From a virus, in the UHGV virus genome UHGV-0282798: a DNA stretch of 45,006 nucleotides; one strand, written 5' to 3'. This document shows, piece by piece, positions 15,795-23,400 of the stretch. Within the stretch, counting starts at the first letter, position 1, and each line of letters opens with the position of its first letter. The position numbers and the translations under genes were made by a program. Below the pieces are notes generated by a model, which worked only from the letters and a program-made list of their open reading frames with translations, was not told the DNA's origin and made no database searches.

Positions 15795-15814
15795 TATCTG
15801 AATCAATTTAACTA

Positions 15815-15839
15815 AGGCCCTTCATTGGGCCTTTTTATT
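15815..15839 (+). terminator. Intrinsic terminator
   Basis: Stem AGGCCC (15815-15820) / GGGCCT (15827-15832), loop ttcatt, then TTTTATT. Confidence 0.6.
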
Positions 15840-18611: not shown

Positions 18612-18892
18612 CCCCGGAAGGCAAGATTCAGAAATACGCAAAAGAGAGGTTCGAGGCCCTGGGCGGCCTCGTTAGAAAATTGTCGTACGAAAATAGAGTA
18701 GGCGCTCCTGACCTGCTGGTGATTCTCCCCTGGAGCATCGTCTGGTTCGTCGAGGTGAAGAAAGACGAAAACACGAAGCCAGACCCGCACCAGCTACGTG
18801 AGCACGAGCGGATGCGCAAACGCGGTGCAAATGTTTTTGTCGTTGGTTCGTTTAAACAGGTTGACGACCTAATAGCGAACTATTATAGTTAG
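18608..18892 (+). CDS. VRR-NUC domain nuclease
   Basis: GAPDLLVIL ... FVEVKK ... Q pattern typical of VRR-NUC. Track ORF 18593; ATG 18608 (MTPEGKIQ). Confidence 0.55.
   Translation: MTPEGKIQKYAKERFEALGGLVRKLSYENRVGAPDLLVILPWSIVWFVEVKKDENTKPDPHQLREHERMRKRGANVFVVGSFKQVDDLIANYYS
18861..18889 (+). promoter_or_regulatory. Promoter TTGACG-17-TATAGT with dyad
   Basis: -35 18861-18866, -10 18884-18889; dyad AATAGCGAACTATT 18871-18884; lies inside the 3-prime end of the VRR-NUC gene. Confidence 0.45.
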
Positions 18893-18922: not shown

Positions 18923-19114
18923 ATGAAACACGAATATGACCGCAAACCCGCACGTGACATCGTACCTGGTGACATGATTTTCAACGTTAAGACCCGTCGT
19001 CCTGTTGCCGTTGATACGGTGTACGTCGAGTCGAATGGTAAACTGGTTATCGAAGATGTAACTGGTAACGTTACGGCGTTCGGGCGTAAAGAGTTAGTTC
19101 TGGTGGCGAAATGA
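18923..19114 (+). CDS. Hypothetical small protein
   Basis: ORF track; ATGA coupling to the next gene. Confidence 0.4.
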   Translation: MKHEYDRKPARDIVPGDMIFNVKTRRPVAVDTVYVESNGKLVIEDVTGNVTAFGRKELVLVAK

Positions 19115-19794
19115 TTGTCTGGTCATTGTTTGACGGTTCGGGCCTTATGGCCCAACCGTGGGCAGAAGCAGGCCATACTTGCTATTGTTTCAACTACGAC
19201 GGTGCCGACCACGGCGACTACGCACGATTGGGCGCAAAAGTTGAACACGAGAACATCCACTATATAAACGCGTGGATTGATAATAAGTTCGACTTCGAGG
19301 TTGCGCCAGATATTATTTTTTCGTTCCCTCCGTGCACAGATTTAGCCGTTAGTGGCGCTGCGCATTTCGAAACCAAGCGGAAGAAGAACCCAACGTTTCA
19401 GGTAGGGGCCGTTATCACATGTAAAGTGGCTGCGCGTCTGGCTAAAAAGTACAACGTACCCTATATGATTGAGAACCCGGTTAGCGTTCTTTCGTCTTTA
19501 TGGCGTAAACCCGATTACGTGTTCAATCCTTACGACTACGGAGGTTATCTACCGGAAAACGACACACATCCAATGTTCCCAGAGTACATAAAACCGAGGG
19601 ACGCGTACCCTAAAAAGACATGTCTTTGGGTGGGTAATGGTTTCGTAATGCCGGTTAAGTCGGGTGTTGCCGTGGGTGATGGGTATTCTGACCAGCACAA
19701 CAAACTTGGCGGTAAATCAGTGCGGACAAAAACAATCCGCAGCCTCACCCCGCGGGGTTTTGCAAAAGCAGTTTACGAGGCTAATCATGTCTAA
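19111..19794 (+). CDS. Compact C5-cytosine-methyltransferase-like protein (~227 aa)
   Basis: Motif I SLFDGSG; motif IV DIIFSFPPCT (PC, but T replaces the usual Q); motif VI MIENP (ENV-like); RSLTPRGFAKAV resembles motif IX; no room for a normal target-recognition domain. Confidence 0.5.
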   Translation: MIVWSLFDGSGLMAQPWAEAGHTCYCFNYDGADHGDYARLGAKVEHENIHYINAWIDNKFDFEVAPDIIFSFPPCTDLAVSGAAHFETKRKKNPTFQVGAVITCKVAARLAKKYNVPYMIENPVSVLSSLWRKPDYVFNPYDYGGYLPENDTHPMFPEYIKPRDAYPKKTCLWVGNGFVMPVKSGVAVGDGYSDQHNKLGGKSVRTKTIRSLTPRGFAKAVYEANHV

Positions 19795-21211
19795 GTTTCA
19801 AAGGCGCGAGTACCAGAAACTCATGACTTCGTTCATGTTGCGGCACCATCGCTGTAACATATGGGCGAGCATGGGCGCCGGGAAGACTGGCAGCGTACTG
19901 TGGGCATTAAACCGACTGTTCCGCAACGGTCAAATTAACGATGACGACCGCGTGTTAATCCTTGCCCCGTTGCGCGTTGCGTCCGGCACATGGCCAGCAG
20001 AACAAGAAAAATGGCAATTCCCGTGTCTACGTGTCGTCGATGCAACTGGTTCGGAGAAGCGCCGCATCGCGGCGCTGGAGTCTGACGCTAACGTGGTGTG
20101 CACGAACTACGAAGTTATCGAGTGGCTGATTGACTACTACGGCAAAGACGACTGGCCTTTTACGGTTATCGTTGCCGATGAGAGCACGAAACTGAAGTCA
20201 TTCCGCAGCCGTTCTGGAGGTAGCAAGCGGGCAAAGGCGCTCAGCAAAGTGGCGTTCGGTAAAGTTAAGCGTTTTATCAACCTGACTGGTACGCCGTCGC
20301 CGAACGGCCTCAAAGACTTGTGGGGTCAGAACTGGTTTATCGACGCTGGCGAGCGCCTGGGGTCGTCGTACACGGCATTCACCGACCGATGGTTTAACTC
20401 TGTACAGAAAGGCAAATCCGCGATGGCGCGTGAGTATCATGCGCGCCCTGGCGCGGATAATGAAATTCACCAGAAGATGAAGGACATCAGTCTTACGATT
20501 GATGCCGCTGAGTGGTTCGGTTGTGAAGCGCCGATTATTGTTCCAGTTGAAATCGACCTGCCGAAGAAAGCACGTCAGGCGTACATCGATATGGAGGAAA
20601 AGTTATTCGCGGAACTGGAGAGCGGGGAAGTTGAAGCGGCTAACGCGGCGGCGAAGACGTCGAAGTGTTTGCAGATTGCATCCGGTGCCGTATATGTATC
20701 CGGGCCAGACGGCGACGCAACCAAAGACTGGGAGAAAGTGCACGACACGAAACTTGATGCTCTTGAGTCAATTGTTGAGGAGTTACAGGGTTCGCCGCTA
20801 TTGGTGGCCTATCAGTTCAAGCACGAACTGGAGCGTATCCTTAAGCGATTCCCGCAGGCGCAGGCGTTTTCTAAAGGTGCGAAGGGTAATAAGCAGATGG
20901 AAGCGTGGAACCGAGGAGAGATACCTATGCTATTGATACACCCAGCCTCCGCAGGCCACGGGCTGTCGCTACAACACGGCGGGCATCACATGGCTTTTAT
21001 GAGTCAGGGATGGAACCTGGAACACTATTTGCAGGTTATCGAGCGAATAGGTCCGGTAAGGCAGATGCAGTCTGGGTACAAACGGTCGGTATTCATTTAT
21101 CAAATAATAGCCCGAGATACTCTTGATGAAGTTGTCTCCGCTCGTACAGACGAGAAAAGGTCTGTACAGGACGAACTACTTAACTATATGAAGAGAAGGA
21201 GTAAGAAATGA
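19787..21211 (+). CDS. SNF2-family helicase
   Basis: GAGKTG (Walker A), ADESTK (DExx), LTGTPSPN, HPASAGHGLSLQ. Track ORF 19664; ATG 19787 (MSKFQRREYQ) overlaps the upstream stop. Confidence 0.75.
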   Translation: MSKFQRREYQKLMTSFMLRHHRCNIWASMGAGKTGSVLWALNRLFRNGQINDDDRVLILAPLRVASGTWPAEQEKWQFPCLRVVDATGSEKRRIAALESDANVVCTNYEVIEWLIDYYGKDDWPFTVIVADESTKLKSFRSRSGGSKRAKALSKVAFGKVKRFINLTGTPSPNGLKDLWGQNWFIDAGERLGSSYTAFTDRWFNSVQKGKSAMAREYHARPGADNEIHQKMKDISLTIDAAEWFGCEAPIIVPVEIDLPKKARQAYIDMEEKLFAELESGEVEAANAAAKTSKCLQIASGAVYVSGPDGDATKDWEKVHDTKLDALESIVEELQGSPLLVAYQFKHELERILKRFPQAQAFSKGAKGNKQMEAWNRGEIPMLLIHPASAGHGLSLQHGGHHMAFMSQGWNLEHYLQVIERIGPVRQMQSGYKRSVFIYQIIARDTLDEVVSARTDEKRSVQDELLNYMKRRSKK

Positions 21212-21396
21212 AATTGTTTTGTGTTAGCTCAAACGTACCTGAGTTCAAAGAGGGTGAAGAATATCTGGCCTACTATAACGGCATTGAGTACCGCGTAATT
21301 TATGATGACTCGGGCTACATAATCGCCGATTACGATGATGACTCGGGCTACATAATCGCCGAGTTCTTTAACGACGGTTTGGTGGAGTTCGAATGA
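21208..21396 (+). CDS. Small protein with internal tandem duplication
   Basis: ORF track; protein contains DDSGYIIA twice. Confidence 0.4.
   Translation: MKLFCVSSNVPEFKEGEEYLAYYNGIEYRVIYDDSGYIIADYDDDSGYIIAEFFNDGLVEFE
21304..21360 (+). repeat. Perfect 24-bp direct repeat separated by 9 bp
   Basis: gatgactcgggctacataatcgcc at 21304-21327 and 21337-21360. Confidence 0.8.
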
Positions 21397-21533: not shown

Positions 21534-21538
21534 AGAAA

Positions 21539-21568
21539 AGGCCCCAAACGGGGCCTTAGTTTTAGATA
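21539..21568. terminator. Bidirectional terminator hairpin between convergent blocks
   Basis: Stem AGGCCCC (21539-21545) / GGGGCCT (21550-21556), loop aaac, then TAGTTTTA; near-identical to the hairpin at 34422-34441. Confidence 0.6.
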
Positions 21569-23400
21569 GATACATTACCAGCAACCTTCCACACACCAGA
21601 GCCAACATGAACCCATTTATAAGGTTGCCCTGCAATCGGCGTAATAAGCTCCCATCGTGCCCCGTTTCCGAATTGTGTAACCGACACGTCAGGCGGAACG
21701 CTCCCGTATACGTGTGCAATGCCATTAATGAGGTACCCGGTAGCAGTCCAGGATGAAGTACCCCAAACGGTGTAATTACCATTATAGTGTGAGTAGTTTA
21801 GCCATGATGTTGAAGCCCCCCACAGGACTCTGGAAGCCTCCGGTGCAACAGTGTTATCAATGTTAAGAGTAGTGTCATTAACTTGCCAGTATTTGCTAGT
21901 ATGTGAGCCAGAGAACTCTGGTAAGTAACTTGCTGTAATCGTCACACCGCATTGTGTAAATATGCATGCAACCACACCTGTATCCACAAGGTTAACACCA
22001 CGGAACCCATTAATAACCATTCTTGACTGATTACACTCAAAGAAACTTCCGTGTATTTCTTCGGCCCCACAGCCATCCATCACTACACTAGTACACCCTA
22101 AGAATACATAAGCGGAACCAGTTACATAATCCGCGGCACAACCTTTAAGATTGGAATAAGTAATGTTAGTAAACTTATATGCCCAACGGGATACATTCCT
22201 GACATAAACATTATTTAAGTTAAAGGTCGTACCACCAGTATCTACAGAAATACCATCTTGAACATCTTTAATGAGAAGTGAATCAAACACCTGAAGCCAG
22301 CTATCACTTGTTCGGTACCCTGTCATCACGTTTTCTATATACAGGTCTTCTAATCGAACCATGTAACTAATCGCGCTATAGATGCCATAGGCATTTTTGG
22401 CGGGAGCAGCTCCAATTAAGCTCATCCCAGTTATTCCTCCGGAACGACTAAAGTTACCGGTTAAATCACCAGCCTCACTGGAATCCATATCTATAGCGGC
22501 GATAAAATCAAGCGAAAAGCTATGCGGCGCACCCTGCCATATACGATCAGGAACTGTTTTAATATCGTTGCCTGTTTTGCGTAGGCCGCAGGAGTCTCTG
22601 CCAATCCCCTCCCACATGACGCGGGGAGGGCGTATAGCTCCATACTTAATATCATAAAAATCTGAGAATCTTAACTTACCTCCAGTCTGTGGAAGGCAAG
22701 AATGAATACGCTCAAGAGCTTCACTGTTTTGCTCAGCTGTACGAGATGCCATCATGCCGCCGTTCTCTACCGGAATATCGATGTGGCTTCCTGCTCTCTT
22801 CCAGCGCTTACCTCCGGGGGTAACAAAAATATTCACACCATCATCAGCTTCAGAACTGGAAAAGGCTATAAATGTTCCTCCCCCAAGCCCGGGTGTGTCA
22901 GAGTAGTAGCCGCGTACCGTGATAACTTGGTTAGATACGGTTGGTTCTATCGTCCGCAGAGTAGCCACATCGGGGCAAGTTCCTACTAATTTTTCTCCGT
23001 CGATTTCGGATAATTCTTCGCGTAAATTCGGGTCGGTCTGCGGCTTCCAGTTAAAGTTACCAACCGGGTTAAATGATGCGGGGACAACAACCGGCAACGT
23101 ACCCGCATACGAGTACCACGTCTTGCTTACAGGGTCATACACCACTTTGTCGCGGTCATTAACTGTTAACGTACCGCCGGTGGAAAAGTCCCACGATACA
23201 GGAGAAAAACCTGCATCGCGCAACACGGCCGGAAGCGTCTTCTGTGTCTGCCCGGTAACCTGATTTGTCGCGTAATCGATATCAGCGCCACCAGCAACAC
23301 CACCGGATTTACCGGTGATAACTTCGGCTTCGAAAATCTGGTGCTTCTTGGCGGTTTGCAAATCCGCCAGGCTTAGAACGTCACCGCATCCGCTTGACAT
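21562..23400 (-). CDS. Tailspike / receptor-binding depolymerase (putative beta-helix)
   Basis: 612 aa; last gene of the tail module; Gly/Ser/Asn/Thr-rich repetitive core; distinct N-terminal ~120-aa module MSSGCGDVLSLADLQTAKKHQIFEAEV. Confidence 0.6.
   Translation of the reverse strand: MSSGCGDVLSLADLQTAKKHQIFEAEVITGKSGGVAGGADIDYATNQVTGQTQKTLPAVLRDAGFSPVSWDFSTGGTLTVNDRDKVVYDPVSKTWYSYAGTLPVVVPASFNPVGNFNWKPQTDPNLREELSEIDGEKLVGTCPDVATLRTIEPTVSNQVITVRGYYSDTPGLGGGTFIAFSSSEADDGVNIFVTPGGKRWKRAGSHIDIPVENGGMMASRTAEQNSEALERIHSCLPQTGGKLRFSDFYDIKYGAIRPPRVMWEGIGRDSCGLRKTGNDIKTVPDRIWQGAPHSFSLDFIAAIDMDSSEAGDLTGNFSRSGGITGMSLIGAAPAKNAYGIYSAISYMVRLEDLYIENVMTGYRTSDSWLQVFDSLLIKDVQDGISVDTGGTTFNLNNVYVRNVSRWAYKFTNITYSNLKGCAADYVTGSAYVFLGCTSVVMDGCGAEEIHGSFFECNQSRMVINGFRGVNLVDTGVVACIFTQCGVTITASYLPEFSGSHTSKYWQVNDTTLNIDNTVAPEASRVLWGASTSWLNYSHYNGNYTVWGTSSWTATGYLINGIAHVYGSVPPDVSVTQFGNGARWELITPIAGQPYKWVHVGSGVWKVAGNVSI

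What the first reader, a model, noticed from the sequence alone, without database searches (positions are those of the whole stretch)
19111..19794. Minimal C5-methyltransferase-like protein lacking a target-recognition domain, coupled to an SNF2 helicase
The 227-aa product has the catalytic half of a Dcm-type enzyme: motif I SLFDGSG, motif IV DIIFSFPPCT (catalytic Pro-Cys, but Thr where Gln is usual), motif VI MIENP (ENV-like) and an RSLTPRGFAKAV segment resembling motif IX. It is about 100 residues too short for a conventional target-recognition domain, and its stop overlaps the start of the SNF2-family helicase. Possibilities are a sequence-nonspecific or partner-targeted cytosine modification enzyme (the non-canonical residue could mean different chemistry), or an inactive DNA-binding relic.
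Basis: partly seen in the sequence, partly recalled or inferred. Interest (0 to 1): 0.6.

Follow-up and report, generated by a model that had tools for sequence, protein, structure and literature searches.

The report
Compact phage Dcm-like cytosine methyltransferase
The gene encodes a very small but almost certainly active phage DNA cytosine-5 methyltransferase from a large family that databases already annotate; a relative in that family has been shown to make 5-methylcytosine and to trigger a bacterial retron defence, so the finding is real but mostly ordinary.

Summary
The ORF at 19111-19794 (+) encodes 227 aa with the quoted motifs, and its stop overlaps the SNF2 helicase start by 8 nt. 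The window is a Kagunavirus/Guernseyvirinae-type siphophage.

The protein belongs to PHROG 757 (E 1e-85). This is a large phage family of about 210-260 aa, found in 1545 of 50,697 phage records and forming 1952 clusters at 50% identity. It is widely annotated as "DNA cytosine methyltransferase".

A Drexlerviridae member, phage K42 Dcm, was shown by others to raise 5mC on retron Ec86 msDNA and to trigger that retron when expressed alone. I did not have the K42 sequence. I matched its published description to the tunzivis ortholog, which is 55% identical to this protein.

An inactive relic, exotic chemistry or obligate helicase partnership are therefore all unlikely. Only 19 of 80 related loci have that helicase within 5 kb.

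What is still open:
- The sequence specificity has never been measured.
- Two co-varying short segments at the target-recognition-domain (TRD) position define two classes that swap between near-identical genes. The window enzyme is in the uncharacterised class.

The parts
19111..19794 (+). Gene for the 227-aa compact Dcm-like C5-cytosine methyltransferase (stop codon included)
19123..19143 (+). Motif I (S5-LFDGSG-11), S-adenosylmethionine (AdoMet)-binding loop
   Evidence: Aligned to M.HhaI D16-LFAGLG-22 by hhalign at 88% probability.
19324..19338 (+). Motif IV (F72-PPCT-76) with the catalytic Cys75
   Evidence: P74-C75 aligned to M.HhaI P80-C81. C75 is invariant in 48 of 48 diverse members. 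It corresponds to C82 of the 236-aa ortholog that was mutated in the retron study.
19471..19479 (+). Motif VI (E121-N-P123), ENV-like
   Evidence: E121 and P123 are invariant and N122 is 98% conserved. The motif pairs with M.HhaI E119-N-V in the extended, low-confidence hhalign. It corresponds to E128 in the retron study.
19612..19629 (+). K168-KTCLW-173, strand at the motif VIII position (Lys in place of the canonical RxR)
   Evidence: K168, T170 and W173 are invariant. K168 and K169 correspond to K175 and K176, which were assigned as substrate-binding residues by superposition on DNMT3A and mutated.
19579..19599 (+). Residues 157-163 (PEYIKPR), first of two co-varying class-defining segments, inside a family-specific insertion
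   Evidence: 'I-x-x-RD' (class A) versus 'IP-x-RD' (class B) co-varies perfectly with the loop at 190-197.
19654..19704 (+). Residues 182-198, short variable loop at the position where canonical enzymes carry the target-recognition domain (class A: GYSDQHN)
   Evidence: One of four low-conservation stretches of the family, the others being about residues 28-70 and 98-116. pLDDT dips to 67 over residues 191-200. Identity to P0004 is 38.9% inside residues 181-198 against 93.3% outside.
19729..19773 (+). K207-TIRSLTPRGFAKAV-221, motif-IX-like element leading into the C-terminal helix
   Evidence: This is the only local profile match in the C-terminal third. It pairs with M.HhaI G269-KTRKLHPR-277 and is weak (E 0.042). 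R210 and G216 are invariant.
18923..19114 (+). Upstream 63-aa ORF (PHROG 4879, unknown function), ATGA overlap with the methyltransferase start
   Evidence: The same gene sits upstream in JSSK01 and phiWAO78-1.
19787..21211 (+). SNF2-family helicase (474 aa); its ATG overlaps the methyltransferase stop by 8 nt
   Evidence: Pfam SNF2-rel_dom E 3.2e-13 and Helicase_C E 3e-4. PHROG 62 E 1.2e-167. The ortholog is annotated as a helicase of 1425 nt.
15814..15833 (+). Terminator-like hairpin upstream of the replication block
   Evidence: AAGGCCC...GGGCCTT followed by a T run.
21538..21557 (+). Terminator-like hairpin closing the polymerase - VRR-NUC - methyltransferase - helicase block
   Evidence: 8-bp stem with 6 GC pairs. 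It lies between convergent genes.

Best explanation
The gene encodes an active, S-adenosylmethionine-dependent DNA cytosine-5 methyltransferase of the compact phage 'Dcm-like' family (PHROG 757).

Catalysis is inferred to follow the standard C5 mechanism:
- Cys75 of the PPC loop attacks C6 of a flipped-out cytosine.
- Glu121 of the ENP motif contacts N3/N4.
- Lys168 and Lys169, on the strand at the motif VIII position, take the place of the usual arginines.
- The methyl group is transferred to C5.

The enzyme has no separate target-recognition domain. I infer that DNA is read by the catalytic loop, a family-specific conserved insertion (residues 147-169) and a short variable loop (residues 182-198).

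The gene is expressed from the replication operon, together with the DNA polymerase, the VRR-NUC nuclease and the SNF2 helicase. It most likely methylates newly replicated phage DNA as an orphan anti-restriction enzyme. As a side effect it should make the phage detectable by retron Ec86/Eco1, which senses msDNA methylation by this enzyme family.

What is shown and what is inferred:
- Shown here: the fold, the motifs, their conservation and family membership.
- Shown by others for a homolog: raised 5mC on msDNA and retron triggering.
- Inferred: that this particular protein is active, its target sequence, and the anti-restriction role.
For: Family membership:
- PHROG 757, E 1.3e-85, full length.
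- 5125 clusters at 90% identity and 1952 clusters at 50% identity, almost all 210-260 aa.
- 1545 phage records, many annotated as cytosine methyltransferase.

Fold:
- AlphaFold model with pLDDT 88.
- Foldseek's top 23 hits are DNMT3A/B.

Motifs:
- Motifs I-IV align to canonical enzymes at 88% probability.
- The catalytic residues are invariant.

Experimental evidence from a homolog (bioRxiv 10.1101/2023.08.16.553469):
- The 711-bp dcm gene of phage K42 was mutated or deleted in retron escapers.
- Expressed alone, it raised 5mC on msDNA by LC-MS.
- The C82A/E128A/K175A/K176A mutant abolished this.
- The tunzivis ortholog has exactly C, E, K, K at those positions and the same gene length. It is 55% identical to the window protein, where the residues are C75, E121, K168 and K169.

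Other support:
- A family member (P0262) is fused to a Dam-type adenine methyltransferase.
- No other DNA-modification gene is annotated in the close relative phiWAO78-1.
Against: - Pfam PF00145 scores only 13.9 bits, below the 22-bit gathering threshold, and covers only residues 3-91.
- There is no NCBIfam hit and no PDB sequence hit, even with a profile.
- No counterpart of motif X (the GN motif) was found, and the RxR of motif VIII is replaced.
- The characterised homolog is only 55% identical. It belongs to the other loop class (B), which differs from the window protein (class A) exactly at the position where a target-recognition domain would sit.
- In the preprint, CCWGG specificity was assumed by analogy with host Dcm and not measured.
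- I did not have the K42 sequence. Its equivalence to the tunzivis ortholog rests on gene length and four residue numbers.
Confidence: 0.8

Rival explanations
1. The methyltransferase works only as a complex with the SNF2 helicase. The helicase would supply DNA targeting or translocation in place of the missing target-recognition domain.
For: - The genes overlap by 8 nt, consistent with translational coupling.
- Adjacency is kept in Guernseyvirinae, and in reversed order in Dhillonvirus JL1 and similar loci.
- BFVD contains a 1397-aa phage protein named 'Helicase/UvrB, N-terminal' that holds a similar methyltransferase-like domain (28% identity, TM 0.67).
Against: - 61 of 80 related viral loci have no homolog of this helicase within 5 kb, even after a 3-round jackhmmer search.
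- It is absent next to the gene in phiKO2, Phapecoctavirus, Arthrobacter phage Coral and Sortsne.
- In tunzivis the nearby helicase is not a detectable homolog.
- K42 Dcm alone raised msDNA 5mC and triggered the retron in E. coli.
Confidence: 0.08
2. It transfers a group other than methyl, for example carboxymethyl from the host's Cx-SAM, as CmoX and the engineered M.MpeI N374K do. A basic residue would sit where canonical enzymes have the motif X asparagine.
For: - CmoX has an SPPC motif and an Arg replacing M.HhaI N304. This family has FPPC and conserved basic residues (K202, R215) near the C-terminus, and no GN motif.
- From my own knowledge, E. coli makes Cx-SAM with CmoA.
Against: - LC-MS with a 5mC standard detected 5mC from the homolog.
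- No CmoA or CmoY-type gene is annotated in the close relative's genome.
- The residue equivalent to N304 could not be assigned, so the structural argument is untested.
- PCT also occurs in a canonical full-length enzyme.
Confidence: 0.03
3. It is a catalytically dead relic that only binds DNA or AdoMet.
For: It is below the Pfam threshold, it lacks motif X and a target-recognition domain, and RxR is replaced by KK.
Against: - The catalytic Cys, the ENP Glu and more than ten other positions are invariant across members that are 34-60% identical to the window protein.
- The family is huge and uniform in length.
- A homolog with the same substitutions is active, and its catalytic mutant is not.
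Confidence: 0.03
4. Its physiological substrate is RNA (tRNA m5C, as for Dnmt2), or single-stranded or hairpin DNA, rather than duplex phage DNA.
For: - The only demonstrated substrate of a homolog is retron msDNA, a single-stranded DNA with a stem-loop.
- In dcm+ MG1655 the msDNA had low 5mC without the phage enzyme.
Against: - The gene sits in the DNA replication module, next to other DNA methyltransferases in several phages and fused to a Dam in one.
- The mutated msDNA site lies in the base-paired stem.
Confidence: 0.05

Closest known systems
Phage K42 (KarlJaspers-like, Drexlerviridae) Dcm, the trigger of retron Ec86/Eco1. Orthologs in tunzivis and BASEL phage FritzSarasin are annotated 'Dcm-like C5 cytosine methyltransferase'.
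   Same: - Same family and architecture: 236 aa against 227 aa, 55% identity over the full length.
- Same FDGSG, CFN.D..DHG, FPPCTDL, IENP, KKTCLW and IRSLTPRGFA motifs.
- The residues mutated there (C82, E128, K175, K176) are C75, E121, K168 and K169 here.
   Different: - The window protein carries the class A versions of the two co-varying segments (EYIKPRD and GYSDQHN). The Drexlerviridae enzyme carries class B (IIPARD and DNPGWA).
- The genomic neighbours differ: there is no overlapping SNF2 helicase in tunzivis.
- The activity of the window protein itself has not been tested.
Canonical bacterial and phage C5-cytosine DNA methyltransferases (Pfam PF00145; M.HhaI, M.HaeIII, E. coli Dcm)
   Different: - About 100 residues shorter.
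- 42 residues between the motif VIII position and the motif-IX-like element, against 107 in M.HhaI.
- No target-recognition domain, and no recognisable motif X.
- KK in place of RxR.
- A family-specific 20-residue insertion before the motif VIII strand.
- Below the Pfam gathering score.
DNMT3A/DNMT3B catalytic domains
   Different: Eukaryotic and about 280 aa. From my own knowledge, they act as oligomers with regulatory partners, retain RxR and motif X, and recognise CpG. Sequence identity is only 12-15%.
CmoX, phage DNA cytosine C5-carboxymethyltransferase (PDB 8yf3)
   Different: CmoX is 372 aa and full length. It has an Arg at the M.HhaI N304 position and comes with phage CmoA and CmoY. None of these partners is present here, and the homolog of this protein makes 5mC.

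Membership tests
Compact phage Dcm-like methyltransferases (PHROG 757) | Full-length match to the family profile | tested here: met
   E 1.3e-85, protein residues 1-226 on profile positions 15-219 of 247.
Compact phage Dcm-like methyltransferases (PHROG 757) | Family-invariant residues present (C75, E121, P123, Y166, K168, T170, W173, P181, R210, G216) | tested here: met
   All are present in the window protein. They are invariant in 48 members that are 34-60% identical to it.
Compact phage Dcm-like methyltransferases (PHROG 757) | Length of about 210-260 aa, single domain | tested here: met
   227 aa. Nearly all complete hits fall in this range (shorter entries look like fragments; a few are longer fusions).
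Compact phage Dcm-like methyltransferases (PHROG 757) | Forms 5-methylcytosine in DNA | not testable with these tools
   Shown only for the K42 homolog, by LC-MS on msDNA. Transfer to this protein is an inference from homology.
Canonical C5-cytosine DNA methyltransferase (Pfam PF00145) | Score above the Pfam gathering threshold | tested here: not met
   13.9 bits against a 22-bit cut-off, E 0.038, residues 3-91 only.
Canonical C5-cytosine DNA methyltransferase (Pfam PF00145) | Motif I (FxGxG) and motif IV (Pro-Cys) | tested here: met
   hhalign at 88% probability, E 2.8e-6. F7..G11 aligns to M.HhaI F18..G22 and P74-C75 to P80-C81.
Canonical C5-cytosine DNA methyltransferase (Pfam PF00145) | Motif VI (ENV glutamate) | tested here: met
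   E121-N-P is invariant. It pairs with E119-N-V only in the low-confidence extension. It was assigned structurally.
Canonical C5-cytosine DNA methyltransferase (Pfam PF00145) | Motif VIII (QxRxR) | tested here: not met
   No RxR is present. The strand at that position reads Y-P-K-K-T-C-L-W, with K168 invariant.
Canonical C5-cytosine DNA methyltransferase (Pfam PF00145) | Target-recognition domain between motifs VIII and IX | tested here: not met
   42 residues (K168 to R210) against 107 in M.HhaI (R165 to R272). Only a variable loop of about 17 residues is present.
Canonical C5-cytosine DNA methyltransferase (Pfam PF00145) | Motif IX (RxLTxRE) | tested here: inconclusive
   KTIRSLTPR pairs with GKTRKLHPR, but at E 0.042 and 1% probability.
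Canonical C5-cytosine DNA methyltransferase (Pfam PF00145) | Motif X (GN(A/S)V helix) | tested here: not met
   No counterpart was found by hhalign, and the protein ends 11 residues after G216.
Canonical C5-cytosine DNA methyltransferase (Pfam PF00145) | C5-methyltransferase fold | tested here: met
CmoX-type cytosine C5-carboxymethyltransferase | SPPC motif, Arg at the M.HhaI N304 position, and linked CmoA | tested here: not met
   The motif here is FPPC, not SPPC. The N304 equivalent could not be assigned. No CmoA or CmoY is annotated in the closely related genome.
Defence-type methyltransferase plus SNF2 helicase modules (DISARM, Dpd, Zorya-like) | Matches to the system's own protein models and a complete gene set | tested here: not met
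   The methyltransferase hits only 'orphan methyltransferase', at E 0.022. The helicase gives partial, far sub-threshold matches to DrmD, DpdE and ZorD. The surrounding genes are a phage replication module.

The most novel reading that the evidence does not exclude
The family may recognise DNA without a target-recognition domain, through a small swappable module made of two co-varying segments (residues 157-163 and 190-197).

These segments exist in at least two discrete versions that recombine between otherwise 93%-identical genes. The window enzyme carries class A, for which I found no experimental data, so it may have a different target from the class B enzyme studied with retron Ec86. That target could be very short, or single-stranded or fork DNA.

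If so, this would be the smallest known sequence-reading C5 DNA methyltransferase architecture. The class would also decide which phages a methylation-sensing retron can detect.
Probability: 0.3. Interest if true: 0.5.

Novelty: new member of a known kind. Interest (0 to 1): 0.3.

Why it matters
For annotating this phage the result is routine: the gene is an orphan Dcm-like methyltransferase in the replication module, and it is probably the only DNA-modification gene of the phage.

Three points give it some wider value:
- The family is very common. It occurs in about 3% of sequenced phage genomes, including many E. coli, Salmonella and Klebsiella phages considered for therapy. It has no solved structure and no measured specificity, and it is about 100 residues smaller than textbook C5 enzymes. 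It is therefore a good test case for how little protein is needed to flip and methylate a cytosine.
- Members trigger retron Ec86/Eco1. Carrying this gene therefore predicts sensitivity to that defence.
- The two-class loop swap found here offers a concrete experiment to locate the specificity determinants.

Tried and rejected
- PDB sequence searches with the single protein and with the family profile found nothing.
- hhalign of the family against the single M.HhaI sequence gave only a spurious 19-residue match. A nine-sequence canonical alignment was needed.
- The C-terminal third could not be aligned reliably to motifs IX and X. Whether a basic residue replaces M.HhaI N304 therefore remains unresolved.
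- A guessed BASEL accession for phage KarlJaspers returned a different phage, so the K42/KarlJaspers sequence itself was never retrieved. Equivalence rests on the tunzivis and FritzSarasin orthologs.
The closer alignment A1 was used instead, which biases the 80 loci towards relatives that are at least 52% identical.
- Motif counts in the window give no clear target. CCWGG is only mildly depleted (observed/expected 0.71).
- Literature searches found no direct determination of the methylation motif for this family.
- Promoter-like matches in the region are no more frequent than in shuffled sequence.

Full report
**1. The observation**

The ORF at 19111-19794 (+) is real and encodes 227 aa. Its ATG overlaps the stop of a 63-aa ORF (ATGA). 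Its TAA lies 8 nt inside the next gene, whose ATG is at 19787. That next gene is an SNF2-family helicase: Pfam SNF2-rel_dom E 3e-13 and PHROG 62 E 1e-167.

The block from the DNA polymerase (about 16.0 kb) to 21.53 kb is tightly packed on the + strand. It is bracketed by two good terminator-like hairpins at 15814-15833 and 21538-21557.

**2. Where the window comes from**

The region 18500-21300 matches 455 phage records at 80-95% nucleotide identity, mostly Salmonella and Escherichia phages, with Kagunavirus and Jerseyvirus among the organism names; the three relatives I opened are Guernseyvirinae, two of them Kagunavirus. In the annotated relatives JSSK01 and phiWAO78-1 the gene order is DNA polymerase, small ORFs, VRR-NUC nuclease, 63-aa ORF, 'DNA cytosine methyltransferase', helicase. 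No other DNA-modification gene is annotated in phiWAO78-1.

**3. The family**

- The protein matches PHROG 757 'DNA methyltransferase' over its full length (E 1.3e-85).
- The big protein collection holds 5125 clusters at 90% identity.
- A profile search of the 50%-identity representatives finds 1952 clusters with E <= 1e-3 and 874 with E <= 1e-10, almost all 210-260 aa.
- tblastn finds it in 1545 of 50,697 phage records. These include the annotated or known lineages Guernseyvirinae, Dhillonvirus, Drexlerviridae, Phapecoctavirus, phage V5, phiKO2, Salmonella phage 7-11, and Vibrio and Arthrobacter phages.
- Many depositors call it a cytosine methylase.
- One member is fused to a Dam-type adenine methyltransferase and another to an HNH nuclease.

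**4. Relation to canonical C5 enzymes**

By sequence the relation is thin:

- Pfam PF00145 gives 13.9 bits (cut-off 22) on residues 3-91 only.
- NCBIfam gives nothing.
- PDB sequence searches give nothing, even with a profile.

I built a canonical alignment from M.HhaI and eight phage enzymes. The phage enzymes came. hhalign against the family alignment gave these results:

| Region | Pairing with M.HhaI | Support |
|---|---|---|
| Motifs I-IV | F7..G11 to F18..G22; P74-C75 to P80-C81 | 88% probability, E 2.8e-6 |
| Motif VI | ENP to ENV | Low-confidence extension only |
| Motif-IX-like element | KTIRSLTPR to GKTRKLHPR | Weak, E 0.042 |
| Motif X | None found | |
| Motif VIII | Canonical RxR is K168-K169-T170 here | |

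The protein is 100 residues shorter than M.HhaI. The gap from the motif VIII position to the motif-IX-like element is 42 residues rather than 107. The 'no conventional target-recognition domain' part of the finding therefore holds.

**5. Is it active, and what chemistry?**

The decisive evidence is in the literature. A preprint on retron Ec86 (10.1101/2023.08.16.553469) reports the following for Drexlerviridae phage K42:

- Escape mutants had lost or disrupted a 711-bp 'dcm' gene.
- This gene, expressed alone, was toxic only in cells carrying the retron.
- LC-MS showed raised 5mC on the msDNA.
- A C82A/E128A/K175A/K176A mutant was inert. Those residues were chosen by superposing an AlphaFold model on DNMT3A.

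The ortholog in phage tunzivis, read from its Met22, is 236 aa (711 bp with the stop codon). It has C, E, K, K at exactly positions 82, 128, 175 and 176. It is 99.6% identical to the gene that the BASEL authors annotated as 'Dcm-like C5 cytosine methyltransferase' in FritzSarasin. It is 55% identical to the window protein over the full length, where those residues are C75, E121, K168 and K169.

The family is therefore an active 5mC-forming DNA methyltransferase family and the known trigger of retron Ec86/Eco1. Later papers also cite this.

The Thr after Pro-Cys is not a sign of new chemistry. A canonical full-length enzyme from Bacillus phage JBP901 also has PCT, and another canonical enzyme has PCE.

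The carboxymethyl alternative (CmoX) is unlikely, because 5mC was detected and no CmoA or CmoY is encoded. I could not determine which residue occupies the M.HhaI N304 position.

**6. Is it coupled to the helicase?**

In 80 related viral loci (52-96% identity), a homolog of the window helicase lies within 5 kb in only 19:

- Downstream and overlapping in the 9 Guernseyvirinae-like loci.
- Downstream in 2 other loci.
- Upstream in 8 Dhillonvirus-like loci. JL1 has the same reversed order.

There is no such helicase next to the gene in phiKO2, a Phapecoctavirus, Arthrobacter phage Coral or Sortsne. The helicase near the gene in tunzivis is not a detectable homolog.

Together with the stand-alone activity of K42 Dcm, this makes an obligate partnership unlikely. 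The overlap reflects ordinary operon packing in one lineage. One weak counter-hint remains: BFVD contains a 1397-aa phage protein named 'Helicase/UvrB, N-terminal' that carries a similar domain.

**7. A new detail: two loop classes**

Conservation analysis shows the family is variable mainly at residues 28-70, 98-116 and 182-198. The last stretch is where a target-recognition domain would sit, and it is one of the low-confidence loops of the model.

Just upstream of the conserved KLGGKS, the sequences fall into two discrete types:

- Class A has GYSxQH. The window protein is in this class.
- Class B has DNPGWA. The tunzivis/K42-type enzyme and most Jersey-like phages are in this class.

The class co-varies perfectly with a second segment inside the family-specific insertion. 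That segment reads 'I-x-x-RD' in class A and 'IP-x-RD' in class B. The counts are 80 of 80 for class A and 33 of 33 for class B; the one apparent exception was a regular-expression misclassification.

The window protein and P0004 are 93.3% identical outside residues 181-198 but only 38.9% identical inside. This looks like a cassette swap. The counts are not independent events, because the sequences are related by descent. The mosaic pair is the stronger argument.

I read these two segments as a candidate miniature specificity module. The consequence is that the one experimentally studied enzyme is class B. Moreover, its CCWGG specificity was assumed by analogy with host Dcm, not measured. The target of the window enzyme is therefore unknown. 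CCWGG is only mildly depleted in the window (84 sites, observed/expected 0.71).

**8. Verdict**

- The more exotic options (relic, new chemistry, helicase-targeted) are not supported.
- The gene is a new member of a known, widely annotated family with one characterised homolog.
- Residual interest lies in how so small an enzyme reads DNA, in the two-class loop module, and in predicting sensitivity to retron Ec86/Eco1.

Noticed in passing
window 1-45006 (whole window): GATC is extremely depleted: 11 sites against about 155 expected from a Markov model (observed/expected 0.07). CAGCTG (2 against 12) and GAATTC (1 against 4) are also low, while CCWGG is only mildly depleted (0.71). No Dam-type methyltransferase is annotated in the close relative phiWAO78-1. 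The phage therefore seems to avoid GATC sites rather than modify them.
   Followed up: partly
window 21208-21396 (+): The ORF downstream of the helicase is a 62-aa protein with no PHROG match and an internal repeat (DDSGYIIADYDDDSGYIIAE). JSSK01 and phiWAO78-1 have a 171-aa Toprim/primase-like gene at this position. The Toprim gene appears to be missing or replaced here.
   Followed up: no
window 21562-23400 (-): This is a 612-aa tailspike. Only its N-terminal ~230 residues, most strongly the first ~110-160, match known tailspike and tail-fibre families. Relatives carry different receptor-binding domains at this position: an endosialidase in JSSK01 and a different spike in phiWAO78-1. This is a typical host-range cassette exchange.
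   Followed up: partly
GenBank records MG065688, MG065658, MG065655, MG065677, MG065669 and MG065638 ('Campylobacter phage ...'): 39 records labelled as Campylobacter phages carry this enterobacterial-phage-type gene at up to 73% identity. Their genome sizes (44 kb, 135-141 kb) are typical of coliphage groups that carry this gene (about 44-kb siphophages and the 138-kb phage V5). These records may be mislabelled or derived from contaminating coliphages.
   Followed up: no
proteins P0262 (563 aa) and P0264 (348 aa): In P0262 the compact methyltransferase is fused to a D12-class (Dam) adenine methyltransferase. In P0264 it is fused to an HNH_2 endonuclease domain.
   Followed up: no
BFVD entries A0A6J5SE15 (1397 aa), A0A6J5NPY6 (1126 aa) and A0A8S5V6E6 (1154 aa): Large phage proteins named helicase/UvrB-N-terminal, uncharacterised and DNA polymerase each contain a domain structurally similar to this methyltransferase. 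For the first two, TM is 0.64-0.67 and identity 25-28%; the DNA-polymerase entry is weaker (TM 0.48, identity 16%). These may be natural fusions of a methyltransferase with a replication enzyme.
   Followed up: no
window 18861-18889 (+): A 10-of-12 sigma-70-like promoter match (TTGACG, 17-nt spacer, TATAGT) lies just upstream of the 63-aa ORF that precedes the methyltransferase. The number of such matches in the region is not above chance.
   Followed up: no
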